Source: Candidatus Pacearchaeota archaeon
GTDB taxonomy: Archaea; Nanobdellota; Nanobdellia; Pacearchaeales; UBA284
DNA length: 58,605 nt
Assembly (NCBI GenBank): GCA_049699715.1
Contig: JBNAVB010000003.1
Span: 1 to 58,605, forward strand
Reading direction: 5' to 3'
Shown here: positions 45,364 through 51,984 of the stretch, piece by piece
How the letters are laid out: every line of letters starts with the position of its first letter
Numbering within the stretch: position 1 is the stretch's first letter
Notes under the pieces: model-generated
Database searches by the model: none
What the model saw: the letters and a program-made list of their open reading frames with translations, nothing else
What the model was told of the DNA's origin: nothing
Translations under genes and position numbers: made by a program

Positions 45364-45486
45364 CGCCAGGAGGAGGATTCGAACCTCCAAGTCCGTAAGG
45401 ACATCGGTTATCTAGTTTTCTTTTTGCCTAAAGATTTTTTAAATCTTTATTTCGAGACCGACGCATTACCATTCTGCCATCCTGGC
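45364..45486 (-). tRNA. tRNA-Ser(CGA) with 41-nt intron at 37/38 (45410-45450)
   Basis: GCCAGGA/TCCTGGC, G73, long variable arm, anticodon stem TCGGT/ACCGA split by intron. Confidence 0.9.
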
Positions 45487-46337: not shown

Positions 46338-46970
46338 TTAAATTTTTTGTTTTATATCACCCAATTGCCATAATATAAAATCGAGCATTTTTACATCGCC
46401 AATCTCTACTCCCAATCTTTCTTTAAAATCTTTAATAATTTCTTTTATCTCTTGGCTTGCAAAAATTTTATTAAACTTCTTTTTAAGCAAATTATACACC
46501 GCTACTCTGTCGTCTATCCTTTCGTTGATATCTCTAATGTTATAATCCAATTTAATATTAAAAATTTTAGCTACTCTACTATCATAAATTGGTTGATTAT
46601 TGTCAACGGTATGGATTAATTTAGAAGCAAAACTTAATAATACCACGGGTTTACCATTTAATCTTGGAATTTTAGACAACTCAATAAGAACTTTTTTAAT
46701 ATCCGTTTCTCCTCTTTGTAACAACTCAAAATATCTATCAATTAGTTTTTCTCCAAGGCCTCCTCTATTCAAAACATAAAACTTTCTATAAACTTTTTTA
46801 AACTTATCATTATTAACTACATTACCAGTTTTAAATTCGGTTAAAATACAATTATAATCGTTGAAAAATTTTTTGTTTTTAAATTTATTAAAAATCTCCT
46901 CTTTATGCTTTTTAATTAAACTTATTATATCCTTTGTCTCCATTTGTTGGCTAATATTAAATTTTCTCAA
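46338..46970 (-). CDS. Hypothetical protein, very AT-rich
   Basis: 210-aa ORF (SFASKLIHT...PIYDS); start may be the later METKD. Confidence 0.65.
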   Translation of the reverse strand: MRKFNISQQMETKDIISLIKKHKEEIFNKFKNKKFFNDYNCILTEFKTGNVVNNDKFKKVYRKFYVLNRGGLGEKLIDRYFELLQRGETDIKKVLIELSKIPRLNGKPVVLLSFASKLIHTVDNNQPIYDSRVAKIFNIKLDYNIRDINERIDDRVAVYNLLKKKFNKIFASQEIKEIIKDFKERLGVEIGDVKMLDFILWQLGDIKQKI

Positions 46971-47092: not shown

Positions 47093-47827
47093 CTATTTTA
47101 TATTTTTCAACTTACCAAAGTTATAAACTTTGCCTTTCTCGTCCAAAACATAAACCTCAAAGTTCTTGATTGCGCGCTCTTCCAGGAACGGCGATAAGAG
47201 TTTCTCACATTTCACATCAGAACCTTCATAAACTGAGAAGAATGAGGGCAGGACAACAAGACTCTTGTCATGCCACTTGCCTTTTAGAAAACATTTATAT
47301 ATTTCTTGCTTGACACCCTCGCGAATCGACACAGCAGGATGCTCATGAGCAATAATTATTGTTTTGATTTTCTTTGCATAGATCTCCTTATCCAAAAGAA
47401 TTTTGTGGCCATGCAATATCGCGATATCATTAACAATATAAAAATTCCTTACAGTCAAATTCTTTTTCTTAGCAATTGGCTCAAGAATTGTGTCGTGATT
47501 TCCTTTAATCAGCACAACCTTTGCTTTTTTCAATAAAATGTCAAGAATCTCAAGAGTCTCGAACCATTCTTGCCTCGAGATTTCACCAAATTCGTGTTTC
47601 AAGTCGCCATTAATTACAACAATCTTTGGCTTTAACTTCAACAGCTCTAGAATTTCCTTTTTTATCTTGCTAAAAGTTACCTTTGGAACTAAAACCCCCT
47701 CTTCAATTAAAGCTTCTTCATAGCCAATATGTAAATCCCCAATGATTAACACTTTCTGTCTCGAGAGCCACAATGCTTTATTCTTTATCTCAATTCCTTT
47801 CAAAATTTCCATCTTTAATGTTTCCAT
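47093..47827 (-). CDS. Metallophosphoesterase (Lhr-associated type)
   Basis: DLHIG, NGDLKH, GNHD, HGH, HEHP. Confidence 0.9.
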   Translation of the reverse strand: METLKMEILKGIEIKNKALWLSRQKVLIIGDLHIGYEEALIEEGVLVPKVTFSKIKKEILELLKLKPKIVVINGDLKHEFGEISRQEWFETLEILDILLKKAKVVLIKGNHDTILEPIAKKKNLTVRNFYIVNDIAILHGHKILLDKEIYAKKIKTIIIAHEHPAVSIREGVKQEIYKCFLKGKWHDKSLVVLPSFFSVYEGSDVKCEKLLSPFLEERAIKNFEVYVLDEKGKVYNFGKLKNIK

Positions 47828-47829
47828 AT

Positions 47830-48060
47830 TTAACGAAGAGCACTTAAATTTAAATAATTTTCATCGAAACTTTCATTCGAATTTTGTTGTGAGTCTGTTG
47901 TGGGTCTGGCTGGCGAAGAAGTAAGGACATATGGGTAGACCACGGACATCGCCGGCATCGCCAGAGAGCTGTCAAAAGAATTTAAAACACAGGACATAGA
48001 AGCTAAAATTAAACCACAGACACAAGAAACAAGACATAACAAACAAAGCCAAAAATCCAT
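47830..48060 (-). CDS. Small hypothetical protein
   Basis: 76-aa ORF with Cys-rich hydrophobic N-terminus. Confidence 0.35.
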   Translation of the reverse strand: MDFWLCLLCLVSCVCGLILASMSCVLNSFDSSLAMPAMSVVYPYVLTSSPARPTTDSQQNSNESFDENYLNLSALR

Positions 48061-48279
48061 TTACTCGCCACTAAAATTTCTTGCTTATATATTTGAGAAA
48101 GACTAACAAAAAGGCTGGCAGATTGGGCAGAAGATTGGGCAAACAAATAGTAGTTGAAGAATGGATGACAAAAAATAGATGATAAATAAATTAAATAAAA
48201 TCACGTGCGAGTTTGCGCAACCACAAAAAGGTTATGCATAATTCATGCAATGCTTCGCAAGAATCAAGAATTCATGATC

Positions 48280-48422
48280 CTATGACAATAGGATAGGCGG
48301 CTCTAATGTAGAAAGTAGCCATAAGGCTGTAAAACTGATTAGAGCGCCCCATCCAATTAAACAAACCACGACTTCACGACTTGTCATAGTGCGGCCTTGA
48401 CCGCGAATAAGCGTATGTCGTG
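48280..48422 (+). ncRNA. IS110-family left end with bridge-RNA-like double internal-loop structure; recombinase absent
   Basis: Two stem-internal loop-stem-loop modules; loop 2 strand TTGTCATAG is the reverse complement of the element start CTATGACAA; followed by GGAGGTGA RBS and a 5-codon ORF. Confidence 0.6.
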
Positions 48423-48684
48423 CAAAATAAAAATGTATTTGAACTATAAAAAACTATAAAAGTTTTATGGAGGTGAAGAAATGAAAGAGTTCTTATAAGC
48501 AAGTTAACAGAACCGTCGGAAGAAAAATTCAAATGTTCATCTACTCTTGTTAATTCTTGAAATTTGCAAAAACCGCTTTCCTTAATTTCCCTTGATAATA
48601 GAGATAAAAATAGAAATTCCAGAAGGATTCAGGAAGAGAAACAAAACTTCCACATATACATTCTTTTTGAAGAATTCAATCTTA

Positions 48685-49017
48685 TTACTGAATTTCTATT
48701 TCTAACTTATTTTTTCCTACTGGATAAATCAAAACAGGCCCCTCTTTTTTTAAGTGCATGGCTTCTGAAATTTTTTTTGGTATTCTTATAATAAGCGAAT
48801 TCCCACTATAGCTTATTTTACTCTCCTTGCTTAAACCAAAAATGCCTTTTTCCTTTTCAATTTTTTCTATTTTTCTTGCTGTCAGCTCATCAAACCACTG
48901 TTCTTTGCATTTGACACAAACCATTGCAGGAAATCTCCCAAGTTCAATCCCATAGGTGCTATAAGCCACAACTTTCTTGACAAGTTTTCCATCGCATAAA
49001 ACGCATTTTTTTATCAT
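48685..49017 (-). CDS. YgiT-type Zn finger plus AbrB/MazE-like domain protein (antitoxin-like)
   Basis: CVLC...CVKC, then SGNSLIIRIPKKI; start set at MIKKC. Confidence 0.8.
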   Translation of the reverse strand: MIKKCVLCDGKLVKKVVAYSTYGIELGRFPAMVCVKCKEQWFDELTARKIEKIEKEKGIFGLSKESKISYSGNSLIIRIPKKISEAMHLKKEGPVLIYPVGKNKLEIEIQ

Positions 49018-49025
49018 TTTATCAT

Positions 49026-49206
49026 TACATAAGTCGCAGGATACCTCTATTTTCAAATAGAGGAGGAATGCGACCCTCCAATAAATTTAATTTCTTCAAT
49101 ATTTTAGCATGAAAGAGGGCTGATGTTGCCCCCCTATTGCTCAATCAAAAGGTATACGTTGATGCCTTGCTCATAATGCTGCGACCTTTAGGTCGCAGTA
49201 GTTTAT
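49026..49206 (+). mobile_element. Complete non-autonomous IS200/IS605-type element
   Basis: Follows TCAT; LE hairpin cctctatt-ttca-aatagagg, RE hairpin ctgcgacc-ttta-ggtcgcag-tagtttat; shares gaaagagggctgatgttgccc with the 1417 and 8618 copies. Confidence 0.85.
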
Positions 49207-49347: not shown

Positions 49348-51984
49348 TTACCCTCCTCTTTCAATCCTATCAAGAACTTGCTGATGCATTCTTTTTAGAA
49401 AATCTATTTTTGCTTCTATTTTCATAAGCTCTGCATAGCCTTGCGTTATCAAATTGAGCGCAAAAGGCGAGGGGATGTCGGTCACTATGGTTTCAACTTT
49501 TATTTTCTTATCTTTTATCCATCTTAGCACTTTCATTGCATTATTGATATCCATTAAATCCTCAAGCACTTCGCGCCTTGTTTCTTTGAGGATTGGAAAA
49601 TCATTGCTAATTTTTTTGACAGCTCCCAATAAAAAATCACTTTTCATCTGTTGCTTACCTACGGTTTTGCTTTTTCCTTTGTAAGAGCGAAGAATCATTA
49701 GTGAGCGAGTAGCACAATGTCTAAACCTTCTCTTGAATATTTCTGTCTTGTCAATTGCTTCTTCAAGCAACGTTCTCAAGGCTTCTGGTTTGTCGCTCAA
49801 TAACTTGAATGCTTTCTCAATTTGCATAGGTCCTTTACTTACAATAAAAAACCCATTGTCATTAATCCCAACCTCAACATCTCTTCTCCCGAATCTTGCT
49901 ACAAGATATGCGAAAGCGCGAGACAAAGCATCATTGACTCTGCGCCCATAAAGCGAATGAATCAAGACATATTGTTTGTCTTCTCTATCCATATATCTCT
50001 CGATGACCACGCGATTCTCGTGAGGCATCTTGCCATTAGTGTAATGATATTGTTCATAAAAATAATTGTAAAGTGCGCTAACAGCATTCTTGTCAACATA
50101 ACAATAACTTTCAATAAACTCTTTAACTTCCTTCTCGCTTTTCCTATTGTCAAACATCTCACAAACCAATTTTCTAAAACGTTGTATTGCCAAGGCCAAA
50201 TCAAATGAAAGTGGCAGCATCTCACTTACCCACGAAGGAATTGTTGGCGGTTTATAAACAGAAGCATTGACATAAACATTCATGCCCCTCGAGTAAAGGA
50301 ACTCGTATTTGTTGCCGCCTAAAACAAAAACATCTCCTTTTTTCAGCCTTTCGAGAAACCCTTCATCGATTTTGCCTATCTTTTCGTCTTTTCTTTCATA
50401 AGGTGTTGCTATAATAACATTTGCAAATGCTTCATCAGGAATTGTTCCTATGTTTGTCATGTAGATCATTCTCGCGAGCTTGCCTTTCTTCCCTAGCTCT
50501 CTCGACTTTTCATCATACCATACCTTTGCATAAACACTCCTTCGTTCTAGCCCTACATACTCACCAGTTAAGTAACTTATTACAGAAAGAAAATCTTCCC
50601 GGGAAAGCTCGTGATAACAATAGCTTTTTTTGATAAGAGAAAAGAGCTCCTCGATATTCCATTTTCTTTGGATTGCCATGCCAAAAATCTGTTGGCTAAG
50701 AACATCCAGACAGTTTTTTGGAAACTCTATCTTGTCAATTTTTCTTTCGAGCGCTTCTTTCAGCATCACAGAACACTCCACGAGATCGTCTCTGTCTAAC
50801 ACAACAAGTCTTCCTTTACTGATGTTATGTAACTTGTGTCCCGCGCGCCCAGTTCTTTGTAATATTCTAGCAACAGATTTCGGAGAGCTCAATAACACAA
50901 CTAAATCAATATATCCTATATCAATTCCCAACTCTAGTGAAGTGCTCGTGACAACACATTTCAACTTGCCCTCACGTAACCTTTGTTCAATGCTATAACG
51001 CAGAGCTTTGCTCAAACTTGAATGATGTGCGCCGATTGTTTCTTCAACTTGTTCATACCTGCCAGGAAACATTTCTTTAAGATGATTGATAACTCTCTCA
51101 GTCGCAGAGCGGGTGTTAGTGAAGATTAAAGTTGTCTTGTGCTCCTGTATCAGCTTATCCAACAAGCCATAAAGACTCATTTGCATTTCTTTCGCATTAG
51201 TGTCAATCAAGTCAGGCACTGGAGAGAGAACTTTCAAATCGAACTTCTTGGCGAACTGGACATCTGCCACAAGACATTCGCGCTCTTTCTCTTTTCCATC
51301 AACATTTTCATAGCCAACGAGAAACTTGGCGATCTCCTCAAGAGGCGCGATAGTGGCGCTCAATCCAATTCTTACAGGGACAATTATGCTTAGGCTCTCA
51401 AGCCTTTCAAGAGACAAGGACAAATGAACTCCTCTTTTATTAGCCAAGGCATGAATTTCATCAACAACAACAAACTCAACAGCCTTGAAAGCCTCTACGA
51501 ATTTTTTTGTGCTTAACACTATGGCTAAAGACTCAGGAGTTGTGATTAAAATGTGAGGCGCGTGTTTCAACATTTTCTGCTTCTCTTCTGTTGTCGTGTC
51601 TCCTGTTCTCACTGCAATTCTTATTCCAAACTCTTTTCCCGCAAGTTTCTCCATTTCTTCAAGAGGCTCTTTCAAGTTGACTTCAATATCTCTGCTCAAG
51701 GCTTTCAAAGGCGAGACATAAACACAATAAACTTTATTCTCTAACTCGTTTCTTTCAGCAAGCGAGATTAAATAGTTAAGGATAGAAGTGAAAGCGCATA
51801 GAGTTTTGCCAGAGCCTGTAGGCGCGGTCACAAGGATATTTTTCCTTTGATGAATTGGCATTATTGCATATCTCTGGCTATCCGCGAATGAGCCAAACTT
51901 CTCCTTGAACCATCTCGCGACAATTGGATTCAGCGCGCTGAGAATTTCTGAATCTGTGTTTGGCTTTTCAATTAGTCTTATCAT
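49348..51984 (-). CDS. lhr: Lhr-core ATP-dependent helicase
   Basis: APTGSGKT, TTPESL, DEIH, AHHSSLS, SLELGIDIG, QRTGRAGH, GTIPD. Confidence 0.95.
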   Translation of the reverse strand: MIRLIEKPNTDSEILSALNPIVARWFKEKFGSFADSQRYAIMPIHQRKNILVTAPTGSGKTLCAFTSILNYLISLAERNELENKVYCVYVSPLKALSRDIEVNLKEPLEEMEKLAGKEFGIRIAVRTGDTTTEEKQKMLKHAPHILITTPESLAIVLSTKKFVEAFKAVEFVVVDEIHALANKRGVHLSLSLERLESLSIIVPVRIGLSATIAPLEEIAKFLVGYENVDGKEKERECLVADVQFAKKFDLKVLSPVPDLIDTNAKEMQMSLYGLLDKLIQEHKTTLIFTNTRSATERVINHLKEMFPGRYEQVEETIGAHHSSLSKALRYSIEQRLREGKLKCVVTSTSLELGIDIGYIDLVVLLSSPKSVARILQRTGRAGHKLHNISKGRLVVLDRDDLVECSVMLKEALERKIDKIEFPKNCLDVLSQQIFGMAIQRKWNIEELFSLIKKSYCYHELSREDFLSVISYLTGEYVGLERRSVYAKVWYDEKSRELGKKGKLARMIYMTNIGTIPDEAFANVIIATPYERKDEKIGKIDEGFLERLKKGDVFVLGGNKYEFLYSRGMNVYVNASVYKPPTIPSWVSEMLPLSFDLALAIQRFRKLVCEMFDNRKSEKEVKEFIESYCYVDKNAVSALYNYFYEQYHYTNGKMPHENRVVIERYMDREDKQYVLIHSLYGRRVNDALSRAFAYLVARFGRRDVEVGINDNGFFIVSKGPMQIEKAFKLLSDKPEALRTLLEEAIDKTEIFKRRFRHCATRSLMILRSYKGKSKTVGKQQMKSDFLLGAVKKISNDFPILKETRREVLEDLMDINNAMKVLRWIKDKKIKVETIVTDIPSPFALNLITQGYAELMKIEAKIDFLKRMHQQVLDRIERGG

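What the first reader, a model, noticed from the sequence alone, without database searches (positions are those of the whole stretch)
48280..48498. Orphan IS110 bridge-RNA-like element with readable guides and no recombinase
Seen: module 1 is ggataggcggctctaat[GTAGAAAGT]agcc-ataa-ggct[GTAAAACTG]attagagcgccccatcc; module 2 is cacgac[TTGTCATAGT]gcgg-ccttga-ccgc[GAATAAGCGTAT]gtcgtg. The loop-2 5' strand is the exact reverse complement of CTATGACAA at 48280. A strong SD leads to MKEFL* only. Known: IS110 bridge RNAs have target- and donor-binding internal loops around a 2-nt core. Inference: core CT and target about TAAAA-CT-TTCTAC, whose reverse complement AGAAAGTTTTA resembles this genome's BRE-TATA promoters. 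A 12-nt match lies at 46777-46788 and may be chance. The current left flank does not match that target and the stems are intact, so it may be a trans-acting guide or non-autonomous element.
Basis: partly seen in the sequence, partly recalled or inferred. Interest (0 to 1): 0.75.

Follow-up and report, generated by a model that had tools for sequence, protein, structure and literature searches.

The report
Leftover guide RNA of a dead transposon
This is the surviving tail of a decayed jumping gene of the IS110/IS1111 kind in a tiny archaeal genome: its folded guide ("bridge") RNA and right end are intact, but the enzyme gene and left end are gone, so it is most likely a well-preserved fossil.

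Summary
The two hairpins are in the sequence exactly as described, and they are not chance. A covariance model of them finds homologues about 20 nt downstream of IS110-family recombinase genes. This holds for 12 of 13 DPANN genome loci (the 13th is N-masked) and 53 of 60 assessable metagenome loci.

Across the family, the hairpin-1 loop strands match the DNA flanking each copy, and the hairpin-2 3' strand matches the element's right end. The window shows the second match too: the variant ATAAGC occurs in both its hairpin-2 loop and its right end.

The window keeps only four things:
- the last 24 recombinase codons, including the stop inside CTATGACAA
- a small 5' hairpin
- the RNA
- the right subterminal repeat, which is the "MKEFL" ORF

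No left end and no recombinase were found anywhere in the 88%-complete genome. The flank does not match the target loop.

Verdict: the core identification (orphan bridge/seek RNA) is right. The proposed left end, the CT core and the trans-acting or mobile reading are not supported. This is a new member of a known kind.

The same scan had earlier noted an archaeal IS1111-type bridge RNA in another genome.

The parts
47886..48094 (+). Context, not part of the element: frameshifted remnant of a small phosphatase-like gene. In relatives this gene lies between the metallophosphoesterase and Lhr helicase genes.
   Evidence: tblastn of the 146-aa protein of G015 (residues 16-59) hits 47951-48094, E 3e-5. 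A CX5R-like 'VCCGSGWRRS' lies in another frame near 47890.
48211..48285 (+). Remnant of the IS110-family recombinase gene: the last 24 codons (VCATTKRLCIIHAMLRKNQEFMIL) plus the stop TGA at 48283-48285.
   Evidence: 9 of 10 recombinase queries align here, E down to 1e-7, at 48-65% identity. Only one query (L080) extends upstream of 48211, weakly, through three in-frame stops.
48278..48293 (+). Small 5' hairpin TCCTAT-GACA-ATAGGA straddling the stop codon. The motif CCTATGA is conserved in most family copies.
   Evidence: Fold. Conserved 'CCTATGA' is seen upstream of hairpin 1 in the sequences.
48291..48354 (+). Hairpin 1, the target-binding loop. The 5' loop strand is GTAGAAAGT (48308-48316). 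The 3' loop strand is GTAAAACTGAT (48329-48339).
   Evidence: Structure and covariation. In homologues these two strands match the right and left flanks of the element.
48375..48422 (+). Hairpin 2, the donor-binding loop. The 5' loop strand is TTGTCATAGT (48381-48390). The 3' loop strand is GAATAAGCGTAT (48405-48416).
   Evidence: Loop letters are conserved across the family. The 3' strand ATAAGC equals the window's own right-end junction ATAAGC.
48423..48485 (+). A/T-rich 3' spacer of the non-coding region, between the RNA hairpins and the right end. It corresponds to the '..GCTTAAATA..AAGC..' segment of intact copies.
   Evidence: Positional correspondence in the sequences. The function is inferred only.
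48486..48499 (+). Right subterminal inverted repeat AGAGTTCTTAT plus the 3-bp extension AAG. This is the right end of the element, and it contains the 'MKEFL*' ORF (48481-48498).
   Evidence: Matches the family right end AAGAATTCTCATAGG with 3 mismatches, and is the only such site that follows the RNA. The 11-13-bp sTIR with a 3-bp right extension is the IS1111 rule (PMC11187229, passages read).

Best explanation
Window 48211-48499 (+) is the 3' part of a decayed IS1111-group (IS110-family) insertion sequence.

In an intact element the order is:
- left end
- DEDD recombinase gene
- a ~135-nt bridge/seek RNA
- right end

In that RNA, the internal loop of hairpin 1 pairs with both strands of the target. 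[quoted passage not shown] The loop of hairpin 2 recognises the element's own ends.

In the window, the left end and all but the last 24 codons of the recombinase gene have been lost. The RNA module and the right end remain structurally intact. Without a left end and without a recombinase in the genome, this copy can neither move nor direct recombination, so it is most likely a recent fossil.

Shown: homology, family anatomy, covariation of guides with flanks and ends, and absence of the left end and of a recombinase in the assembly.

Inferred: that the RNA worked as a guide in the ancestor, that loss was by deletion, and that the remnant is now inert.
For: 1. A model of the window's two hairpins finds full-length matches in other genomes of the order. 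In L070 the match starts 29 nt after a 333-aa ORF carrying PF01548 (75.5 bits) and PF02371 (82.6 bits).

2. The RNA lies directly downstream, on the same strand, in 12 of 13 DPANN recombinase loci; the 13th, L078, is N-masked there. Of 80 fetched metagenome loci, 49 have a full recombinase, 4 have one cut by the contig end, 7 have none, and 20 have too little upstream DNA.

3. The window holds the recombinase C-terminus at 48211-48279, followed by LTGA.

4. Intact copies end in inverted repeats TATGAGAATTCT / AGAATTCTCATA, with ..GATGAT on the left and AGG on the right. This fits the IS1111 rule of an 11-13-bp sTIR with 7/3-bp extensions and a 3' non-coding region (PMC11187229; PMC11208160).

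5. Guides versus flanks, counted as exact matches of 8 nt or more:
- Left junction to the 3' half of hairpin 1: 8 of 11 cognate against 1 of 165 non-cognate in genome loci, and 28 of 43 against 24 of 2451 in metagenome loci.
- Right junction to the 5' half: 4 of 16 against 1 of 240, and 21 of 47 against 15 of 2679.

6. The base after ATA[A/G]G in the hairpin-2 3' strand equals the base after the right end in 15 of 15 copies (A, T or C). The window's unique ATAAGC is present in both places.

7. The RNA is not degraded. Model R2, built without the window, scores it at 120.4 bits, 5th of 13 full-length matches, which range from 102.8 to 127.7 bits.

8. Strand: three pairs are G.U on the + strand in 11-14 of 14 sequences.

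9. No recombinase domain was found in the own genome. No second copy, left end or other right end was found. In G002 of the same genus, Lhr and the phosphoesterase gene abut with no such insert. Neither the recombinase nor the RNA was found in 23 genomes of the same family.
Against: - The genome is only 87.66% complete, and IS copies are typically lost from such assemblies. Many family copies sit on ~1.5-kb contigs or at contig ends. A full copy in the same organism therefore cannot be excluded.
- The RNA shows no decay at all, which a neutral fossil would accumulate with time.
- A second, independent orphan (L141) keeps recombinase homology from almost the same codon, K-[AV]-[IV]-C-A. This hints that the last ~75 nt of the ORF may belong to a retained transcription unit rather than marking a random deletion edge.
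- The window's hairpin-1 loop does not match its right flank (longest shared word 3-4 nt). The original insertion cannot be reconstructed; the same is true of about half of the intact copies.
- No intact relative with the window's ATAAGC variant was found.
- There are no expression data.
Confidence: 0.82

Rival explanations
1. One reading: a live trans-acting guide or non-autonomous element. The orphan RNA would be transcribed and used by a cognate recombinase encoded elsewhere (in an unassembled copy, a host or a co-resident genome), or the unit would be mobilised in trans.
For: - The RNA is fully intact at 120.4 bits.
- The assembly is 87.66% complete.
- Recombinase-less minis of this same family exist and appear to have moved. 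L160 (also seen as L069), L166, L200 and L208 share one ORF deletion (left end + 5' UTR + RNA + right end) but sit in different flanks. L166 has a 10-nt left guide match and L208 a 10-nt right guide match.
Against: - This copy has no left end. No match to the family left end was found with 3 or fewer mismatches, and none to the left end predicted from the window's own right repeat. It therefore cannot be a donor.
- No recombinase was found in the genome, nor in 23 genomes of its family.
- The target loop does not match the flank.
- No clear target site exists in the genome: 3 sites with 1 mismatch in 14, against roughly 0.2-0.7 expected by my own estimate.
Confidence: 0.08
2. A retained or exapted RNA gene. 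The last ~75 nt of the recombinase ORF, the RNA and the right end would form a self-contained transcription unit kept by selection for some other role, for instance as a decoy for incoming recombinases.
For: - Two independent orphans, the window and L141, keep recombinase homology from nearly the same codon, with no detectable homology to most queries upstream.
- The RNA is intact.
Against: - Other orphans have different 5' edges: G106 starts at the RNA itself, G083 and L137 start inside or after hairpin 1, and L210 lacks hairpin 1.
- The unit is not conserved in the genus or the family.
- No promoter or transcript has been shown.
- Two coinciding edges among several truncated copies can be chance.
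Confidence: 0.06
3. An unrelated structured RNA (H/ACA-like or C/D-like guide, RNase P or SRP fragment), or chance palindromes or a terminator.
For: - Internal-loop hairpins recall pseudouridylation pockets.
- The element is single-copy in the genome.
Against: - No Rfam family reaches its threshold, and all 8 weak hits at E up to 10 are unrelated.
- RNase P RNA and SRP RNA are elsewhere in the genome.
- By eye there is no ACA at the expected distance and no K-turn (the criteria are recalled).
- Homology to the non-coding regions of recombinase loci is overwhelming.
Confidence: 0.01

Closest known systems
IS1111-group insertion sequences with a 3' seekRNA (ISEc11, ISKpn4, ISPa11, ISPst6; Siddiquee et al. 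2024, PMC11187229, passages read)
   Same: - DEDD recombinase, followed by a long non-coding region encoding the guide RNA.
- Subterminal inverted repeats of 11-13 bp with short terminal extensions.
[quoted passage not shown] That is exactly the order seen here.
   Different: - The hosts are DPANN archaea, with weaker RNA matches in Thermoplasmata.
- The RNA family has no Rfam match.
- Nothing here has been tested experimentally.
- The window copy lacks the recombinase and the left end.
IS621 bridge RNA (IS110 group; Durrant et al. 2024, PMC11208160, passages read)
   Same: - Two internal loops in the same order: target-binding first, donor-binding second.
- Each loop addresses both DNA strands.
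- The donor loop is conserved with the element ends, and the target loop varies.
   Different: - In IS621 the RNA is in the left end, upstream of the gene. Here it is downstream.
- The strand order within the loops is reversed.
- A CT core is not seen; junctions here show [T/A]G.
- The inverted repeats here are long and subterminal.
Transposase-less ssr9 modules of ISPpu9 in Pseudomonas putida (Pares-Guillen et al. 2025, PMC12288879, abstract and passages read)
   Same: Copies of an IS110-family small-RNA module occur in the genome without the transposase gene.
   Different: - Ssr9 is not required for transposition and is distinct from that element's bridge RNA.
- Those modules are bounded by repeat boxes and form circles.
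- The window copy has only one end and an idiosyncratic 5' edge.
Miniature non-autonomous IS derivatives (MITE-like)
   Same: Family members L160 (also seen as L069), L166, L200 and L208 are left end + RNA + right end with the ORF deleted.
   Different: - Those minis carry their own guide RNA.
- The window copy is not one of them, because it has no left end.

Membership tests
IS1111 group of the IS110 family (element) | Encodes a DEDD recombinase (Pfam PF01548 + PF02371) | tested here: not met
   In the window only the last 24 codons remain, and no domain match exists anywhere in the own genome. The feature is met in homologous loci: L070 scores 75.5 and 82.6 bits, and 49 of 80 metagenome loci have a full gene.
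IS1111 group of the IS110 family (element) | Long non-coding region downstream of the recombinase gene that encodes a structured RNA | tested here: met
   The RNA starts 6 nt after the remnant's stop codon. The same position is seen in 12 of 13 genome loci and 53 of 60 assessable metagenome loci.
IS1111 group of the IS110 family (element) | Subterminal inverted repeats of 11-13 bp at both ends, with extensions of about 7 bp (left) and 3 bp (right) | tested here: not met
   Only the right repeat is present (48486-48496, plus AAG). No left repeat was found. Intact relatives have both.
Bridge / seek RNA (functional class) | Two stem-internal loop-stem modules supported by covariation | tested here: met
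   RNAalifold gives 13 of 26 pairs with compensatory changes. The window scores 120.4 bits against a model built without it.
Bridge / seek RNA (functional class) | Donor loop matches the element's own end | tested here: met
   The hairpin-2 3' strand ATAAGC equals the right-end junction ATAAGC in the window. The variable base agrees in 15 of 15 copies. The pairing partner of the 5' strand could not be fixed.
Bridge / seek RNA (functional class) | Target loop matches the DNA flanking the element | tested here: not met
   In the window, the right flank shares only 3-4 nt with the loop, and the left junction no longer exists. For the family the feature is met: left 28 of 43 against 24 of 2451, right 21 of 47 against 15 of 2679.
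Bridge / seek RNA (functional class) | RNA is transcribed and bound by the recombinase | not testable with these tools
   No sequencing run was listed.
IS110 group (IS621-type) bridge RNA | [quoted passage not shown] | tested here: not met
   The RNA is downstream, and the strand order is the reverse. The criteria are from PMC11208160.
Archaeal H/ACA guide sRNA (considered) | ACA box about 14-15 nt from the pocket and a K-turn or K-loop in the upper stem (criteria recalled) | tested here: not met
   Neither motif is seen in the sequence. No Rfam family matches at E up to 10.

The most novel reading that the evidence does not exclude
In this archaeal IS1111-like family the guide RNA module may outlive its recombinase as a unit in its own right. 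Recombinase-less minis that carry their own bridge RNA have spread to new sites. The window-type orphans (last ~25 codons + RNA + right end, with the same 5' edge in two independent loci) would be self-transcribed guide RNAs. These could still programme, or compete for, a recombinase supplied in trans by another copy or another genome in the community.
Probability: 0.1. Interest if true: 0.6.

Novelty: new member of a known kind. Interest (0 to 1): 0.36.

Why it matters
- It shows that a reader can recognise a bridge/seek RNA from sequence alone, and that the call holds up under test.
- It defines an archaeal RNA family that Rfam does not detect. The family is found in DPANN genomes, with weaker matches in Thermoplasmata, and has more than 120 copies in metagenomes. 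Natural variation in the family displays the guide-target and guide-end code of IS1111-type elements.
- For this genome the practical point is annotation. The 850-bp "empty" gap is a phosphatase pseudogene plus an IS fossil. It holds no new RNA gene of the cell and no coding 5-codon ORF.
- The family also contains ORF-less minis that keep the guide RNA. These would be a natural example of a non-autonomous element carrying its own targeting RNA.

Tried and rejected
- BLASTN of the 171 nt against 60 relatives gave only chance hits; the best was 23 nt at E 0.007. Homologues appeared only with a structure-aware model.
- Rfam gave nothing. RNase P RNA and SRP RNA are elsewhere in the genome. H/ACA and C/D readings were rejected by eye.
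- A link to the neighbouring 123-aa Zn-ribbon/AbrB-like gene was rejected. Its homologues in 17 other genomes have no similar DNA downstream and no RNA-model hit.
- Remnants of other genes in the gap: only the phosphatase-like fragment was found.
- A degenerate left end at 48177 (AGATGATA...): local alignment to 11 left-end regions gave p about 0.02 for one and 0.25 or more for the other ten. This is not significant after multiple testing. The left repeat expected from the window's own right repeat is absent.
- Pairing of CTATGACAA with the hairpin-2 5' strand as a family feature: the extra three bases agree fully in 2 of 12 copies, with a mean of about 1.3 of 3 (one row, L073, was mis-anchored by my regex and corrected by eye).
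- Predicted target in the own genome: no exact site, 3 sites at 1 mismatch of 14, none next to the element.
- The window-specific variant pattern found nothing in metagenome contigs.
- Sequencing runs: none was listed and no RNA holder was listed.
- My first regex for hairpin 1 in the metagenome loci caught only 4 loci. It was corrected, where 59 of 80 loci were anchored; the other 21 were left out of the counts.
- Literature: searches for 'DPANN' + 'IS110' (4 papers), for 'bridge RNA' with three DPANN taxon names, and for 'bridge RNA' + 'non-autonomous' (4 papers) listed nothing on such elements. I saw only listings, plus passages of two of the papers.

Full report
**Observation**

- Hairpin 1 (48291-48354) and hairpin 2 (48375-48422) each have a lower stem, a large two-sided internal loop, a 4-bp upper stem and a small apical loop.
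- TTGTCATAG (48381-48389) is the reverse complement of CTATGACAA (48280-48288).
- A GGAGG-like box precedes a 5-codon ORF at 48481-48498.
- The region folds better than all 200 shuffles on either strand (z -4.1 and -4.7).
- It lies in an 857-bp ORF-poor gap. On one side is a metallophosphoesterase gene (47093-47827, -). On the other are a 123-aa Zn-ribbon/AbrB-like gene (48685-49056, -) and then an Lhr helicase gene (49348-51984, -).
- The genome is small (622 kb in 26 contigs, 87.66% complete) and archaeal; an intron-containing tRNA is at 45364-45486.

**First tests were negative**

- Rfam gives no match, even at E 10.
- The sequence is single-copy in the genome.
- BLASTN finds nothing in 60 relatives.
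- The two IS110 Pfam domains are not found in the genome.
- RNase P RNA and SRP RNA are on other contigs.

**Synteny shows that the gap is an insertion-prone spot**

- In G002 of the same genus, the Lhr and phosphoesterase genes abut.
- G015 has a 146-aa phosphatase-like gene between them. G001 and G006 have other cargo there.
- The left part of the window's gap (about 47886-48094) is a frameshifted remnant of that phosphatase-like gene, E 3e-5.

**Homologues**

A covariance model (R1) of the window's two hairpins was searched over 100 relatives.
- It found full-length matches in G095 (54 bits) and G040 (48 bits), and a hairpin-2 match in G083 (30.5 bits).
- In G040 the match begins 29 nt after the stop of a 333-aa ORF that carries PF01548 and PF02371 above threshold.
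- That protein has relatives at 48-58% identity in 14 other genomes among 401 genomes of the order. None is in the 23 genomes of the window's own family.
- A scan of species-representative genomes added loci whose records are titled Woesearchaeota, Pacearchaeota and Nanoarchaeota, and more distant ones (37-42% identity) titled Thermoplasmata.
- In 12 of the 13 DPANN loci with a (near) full gene, the RNA model matches directly downstream on the same strand. In the 13th, L078, the place is N-masked.
- A second model (R2), built from 11 homologues without the window, scores the window at 120.4 bits. That ranks 5th among 13 full-length matches (102.8-127.7 bits). R2 also hits just downstream of three Thermoplasmata recombinase genes at 32-42 bits.
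- A degenerate pattern of hairpin 2 matched more than 120 stretches in metagenome contigs. Of the 80 fetched, 49 have a full recombinase gene upstream, 4 have one cut by the contig end, 20 have too little upstream DNA, and 7 have none or only a stub.

**What the window retains**

- Frame 3 of the + strand reads VCATTKRLCIIHAMLRKNQEFMIL* at 48211-48285. This aligns to the C-termini of 9 of 10 family recombinases, E to 1e-7.
Together with ATAGGA it forms a small hairpin whose CCTATGA motif is conserved in most copies.
- Intact copies begin ..[flank][T/A]GATGATATGAGAATTCT.. and end ..AAGAATTCTCATAGG.
- These are 11-12-bp subterminal inverted repeats with about 7-bp left and 3-bp right extensions, and a long non-coding region 3' of the gene. 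That is the IS1111 pattern as described in PMC11187229 and PMC11208160.
- The window has the right end, AGAGTTCTTAT+AAG at 48486-48499.
- No left end is present, neither the family motif nor the one predicted from the window's own right repeat. An AGATGATA at 48177 is not followed by a repeat and is not significant.

**Structure**

RNAalifold on 14 sequences returns the same two hairpins with open internal loops. Thirteen of 26 pairs show compensatory changes. Three pairs are G.U on the + strand in 11-14 sequences, which fixes the strand as that of the recombinase.

**Guide code**

- The loop letters of hairpin 1 vary between copies, while those of hairpin 2 are conserved.
- In genome loci, the 14 nt at the left junction share an exact word of 8 nt or more with the 3' half of hairpin 1 in 8 of 11 cognate pairs, against 1 of 165 non-cognate pairs.
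- The reverse complement of the right flank shares such a word with the 5' half in 4 of 16 cognate pairs, against 1 of 240 non-cognate (the 16 include the window and the other orphans).
- In 58 distinct metagenome copies the figures are 28 of 43 against 24 of 2451 (left) and 21 of 47 against 15 of 2679 (right). There, 21 of 80 loci lacked the anchor and were left out.
- The order, with the top-strand complement first, is the one reported for IS1111 seekRNAs and is the reverse of IS621.
- The hairpin-2 3' strand reads ATA[G/A]G + N. It equals the right end plus the next base in 15 of 15 copies, with N being A, T or C. The window alone has ATAAGC, and it has it in both places. This is a double compensatory change, showing that this RNA and this end evolved together.
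- The partner of the hairpin-2 5' strand is not settled. It shares TCAT/ATGA with the left extension, with one supporting variant in L070. The extended match to CTATGACAA is not general.

**State of the window copy**

- Its hairpin-1 loop (5' strand GTAGAAAGT, 3' strand GTAAAACTGAT) shares only 3-4 nt with the present right flank, CAAGTTAAC...
- By analogy with the family, the target would read about TAAAAC-T[G/T]-TCTAC. The genome has no exact site and three with one mismatch in 14. The site at 46776 is one of 14 with two or fewer mismatches.
- With no left end and no recombinase, the copy cannot act as a donor.
- Other orphans exist with different edges:
  - G106 has the RNA plus the right end only.
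  - G083 and L137 have hairpin 2 plus the right end.
  - L210 has the left end fused into the hairpin-1 3' stem.
  
  This variety fits decay by deletion.
- Against a purely random edge, L141 keeps recombinase homology from almost the same codon as the window.

**Noticed beyond the finding**

Four metagenome loci, one of them also seen as a genome locus (L160/L069, L166, L200, L208), are left end + 5' UTR + RNA + right end, with the ORF removed at the same place. They lie in different flanks. L166 matches its left flank and L208 its right flank over 10 nt. They look like mobile minis that carry their own guide RNA. G095 holds such a mini and a full copy.

**Comparison and verdict**

- The element works like, and by its relatives belongs to, the IS1111 group of RNA-guided IS110-family elements.
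- As a copy, it fails the element-level criteria (recombinase, left end) and passes the RNA-level ones, except the flank match.
- It is a new, archaeal member of a known kind, present here as a structurally intact fossil.
I did not test that note.
- No expression data could be obtained.

Noticed in passing
L069 1230-1720 (also seen as L160); L166, L200, L208 (metagenome loci): Recombinase-less mini elements: left end + 5' UTR + bridge RNA + right end. All have the ORF deleted at the same place but lie in different flanks. L166 has a 10-nt left guide-flank match and L208 a 10-nt right one. They look like mobile non-autonomous elements that carry their own guide RNA.
   Followed up: partly
window 48211 and L141 about 1605 (oriented as): Two independent orphans keep recombinase homology from almost the same codon (K-[AV]-[IV]-C-A, about 25 codons before the stop). 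This may mark the start of the RNA's own transcription unit, or it may be coincidence.
   Followed up: partly
window 47886-48094 (+): Frameshifted remnant of a small phosphatase-like gene (CX5R-like motif) that is intact at the same position in G015 and G001. The Lhr-phosphoesterase interval is variable among relatives: empty in G002, and 5.2 kb of sugar-phosphate genes in G001.
   Followed up: partly
window 48685-49056 (-) and 49040-49200: A 123-aa Zn-ribbon + AbrB/MazE-like gene. It was not found in 23 genomes of the own family, but is present at 54-66% identity in other families of the order, so it was probably acquired. Its upstream region holds repeats of TGCGACC in inverted arrangement.
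   Followed up: no
own genome, e.g. C12:37-45, C16:39-47, C11:22905-22913: The 9-mer ACTTTCTAC (reverse complement of the hairpin-1 5' loop strand) occurs 19 times in the genome. Several occurrences sit in two repeated contexts (ttatagagattt|ACTTTCTAC|aagcc and tttctataagaa|ACTTTCTAC|agcgcc), often near contig ends. These look like a shared promoter-like element.
   Followed up: no
L074 and L075 (two genomes of one genus): The target loop of the L074 copy matches both flanks of the L075 copy (9 nt on the left, 7 nt on the right) rather than its own flanks. This suggests either guidance by the RNA of another copy or later change of the loop.
   Followed up: no
L099, L100, L102 (records titled Thermoplasmata/Thermoplasmatales): Recombinases at 37-42% identity also have weak matches (32-42 bits) to the RNA model directly downstream. 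The RNA family therefore seems to reach beyond DPANN archaea.
   Followed up: no
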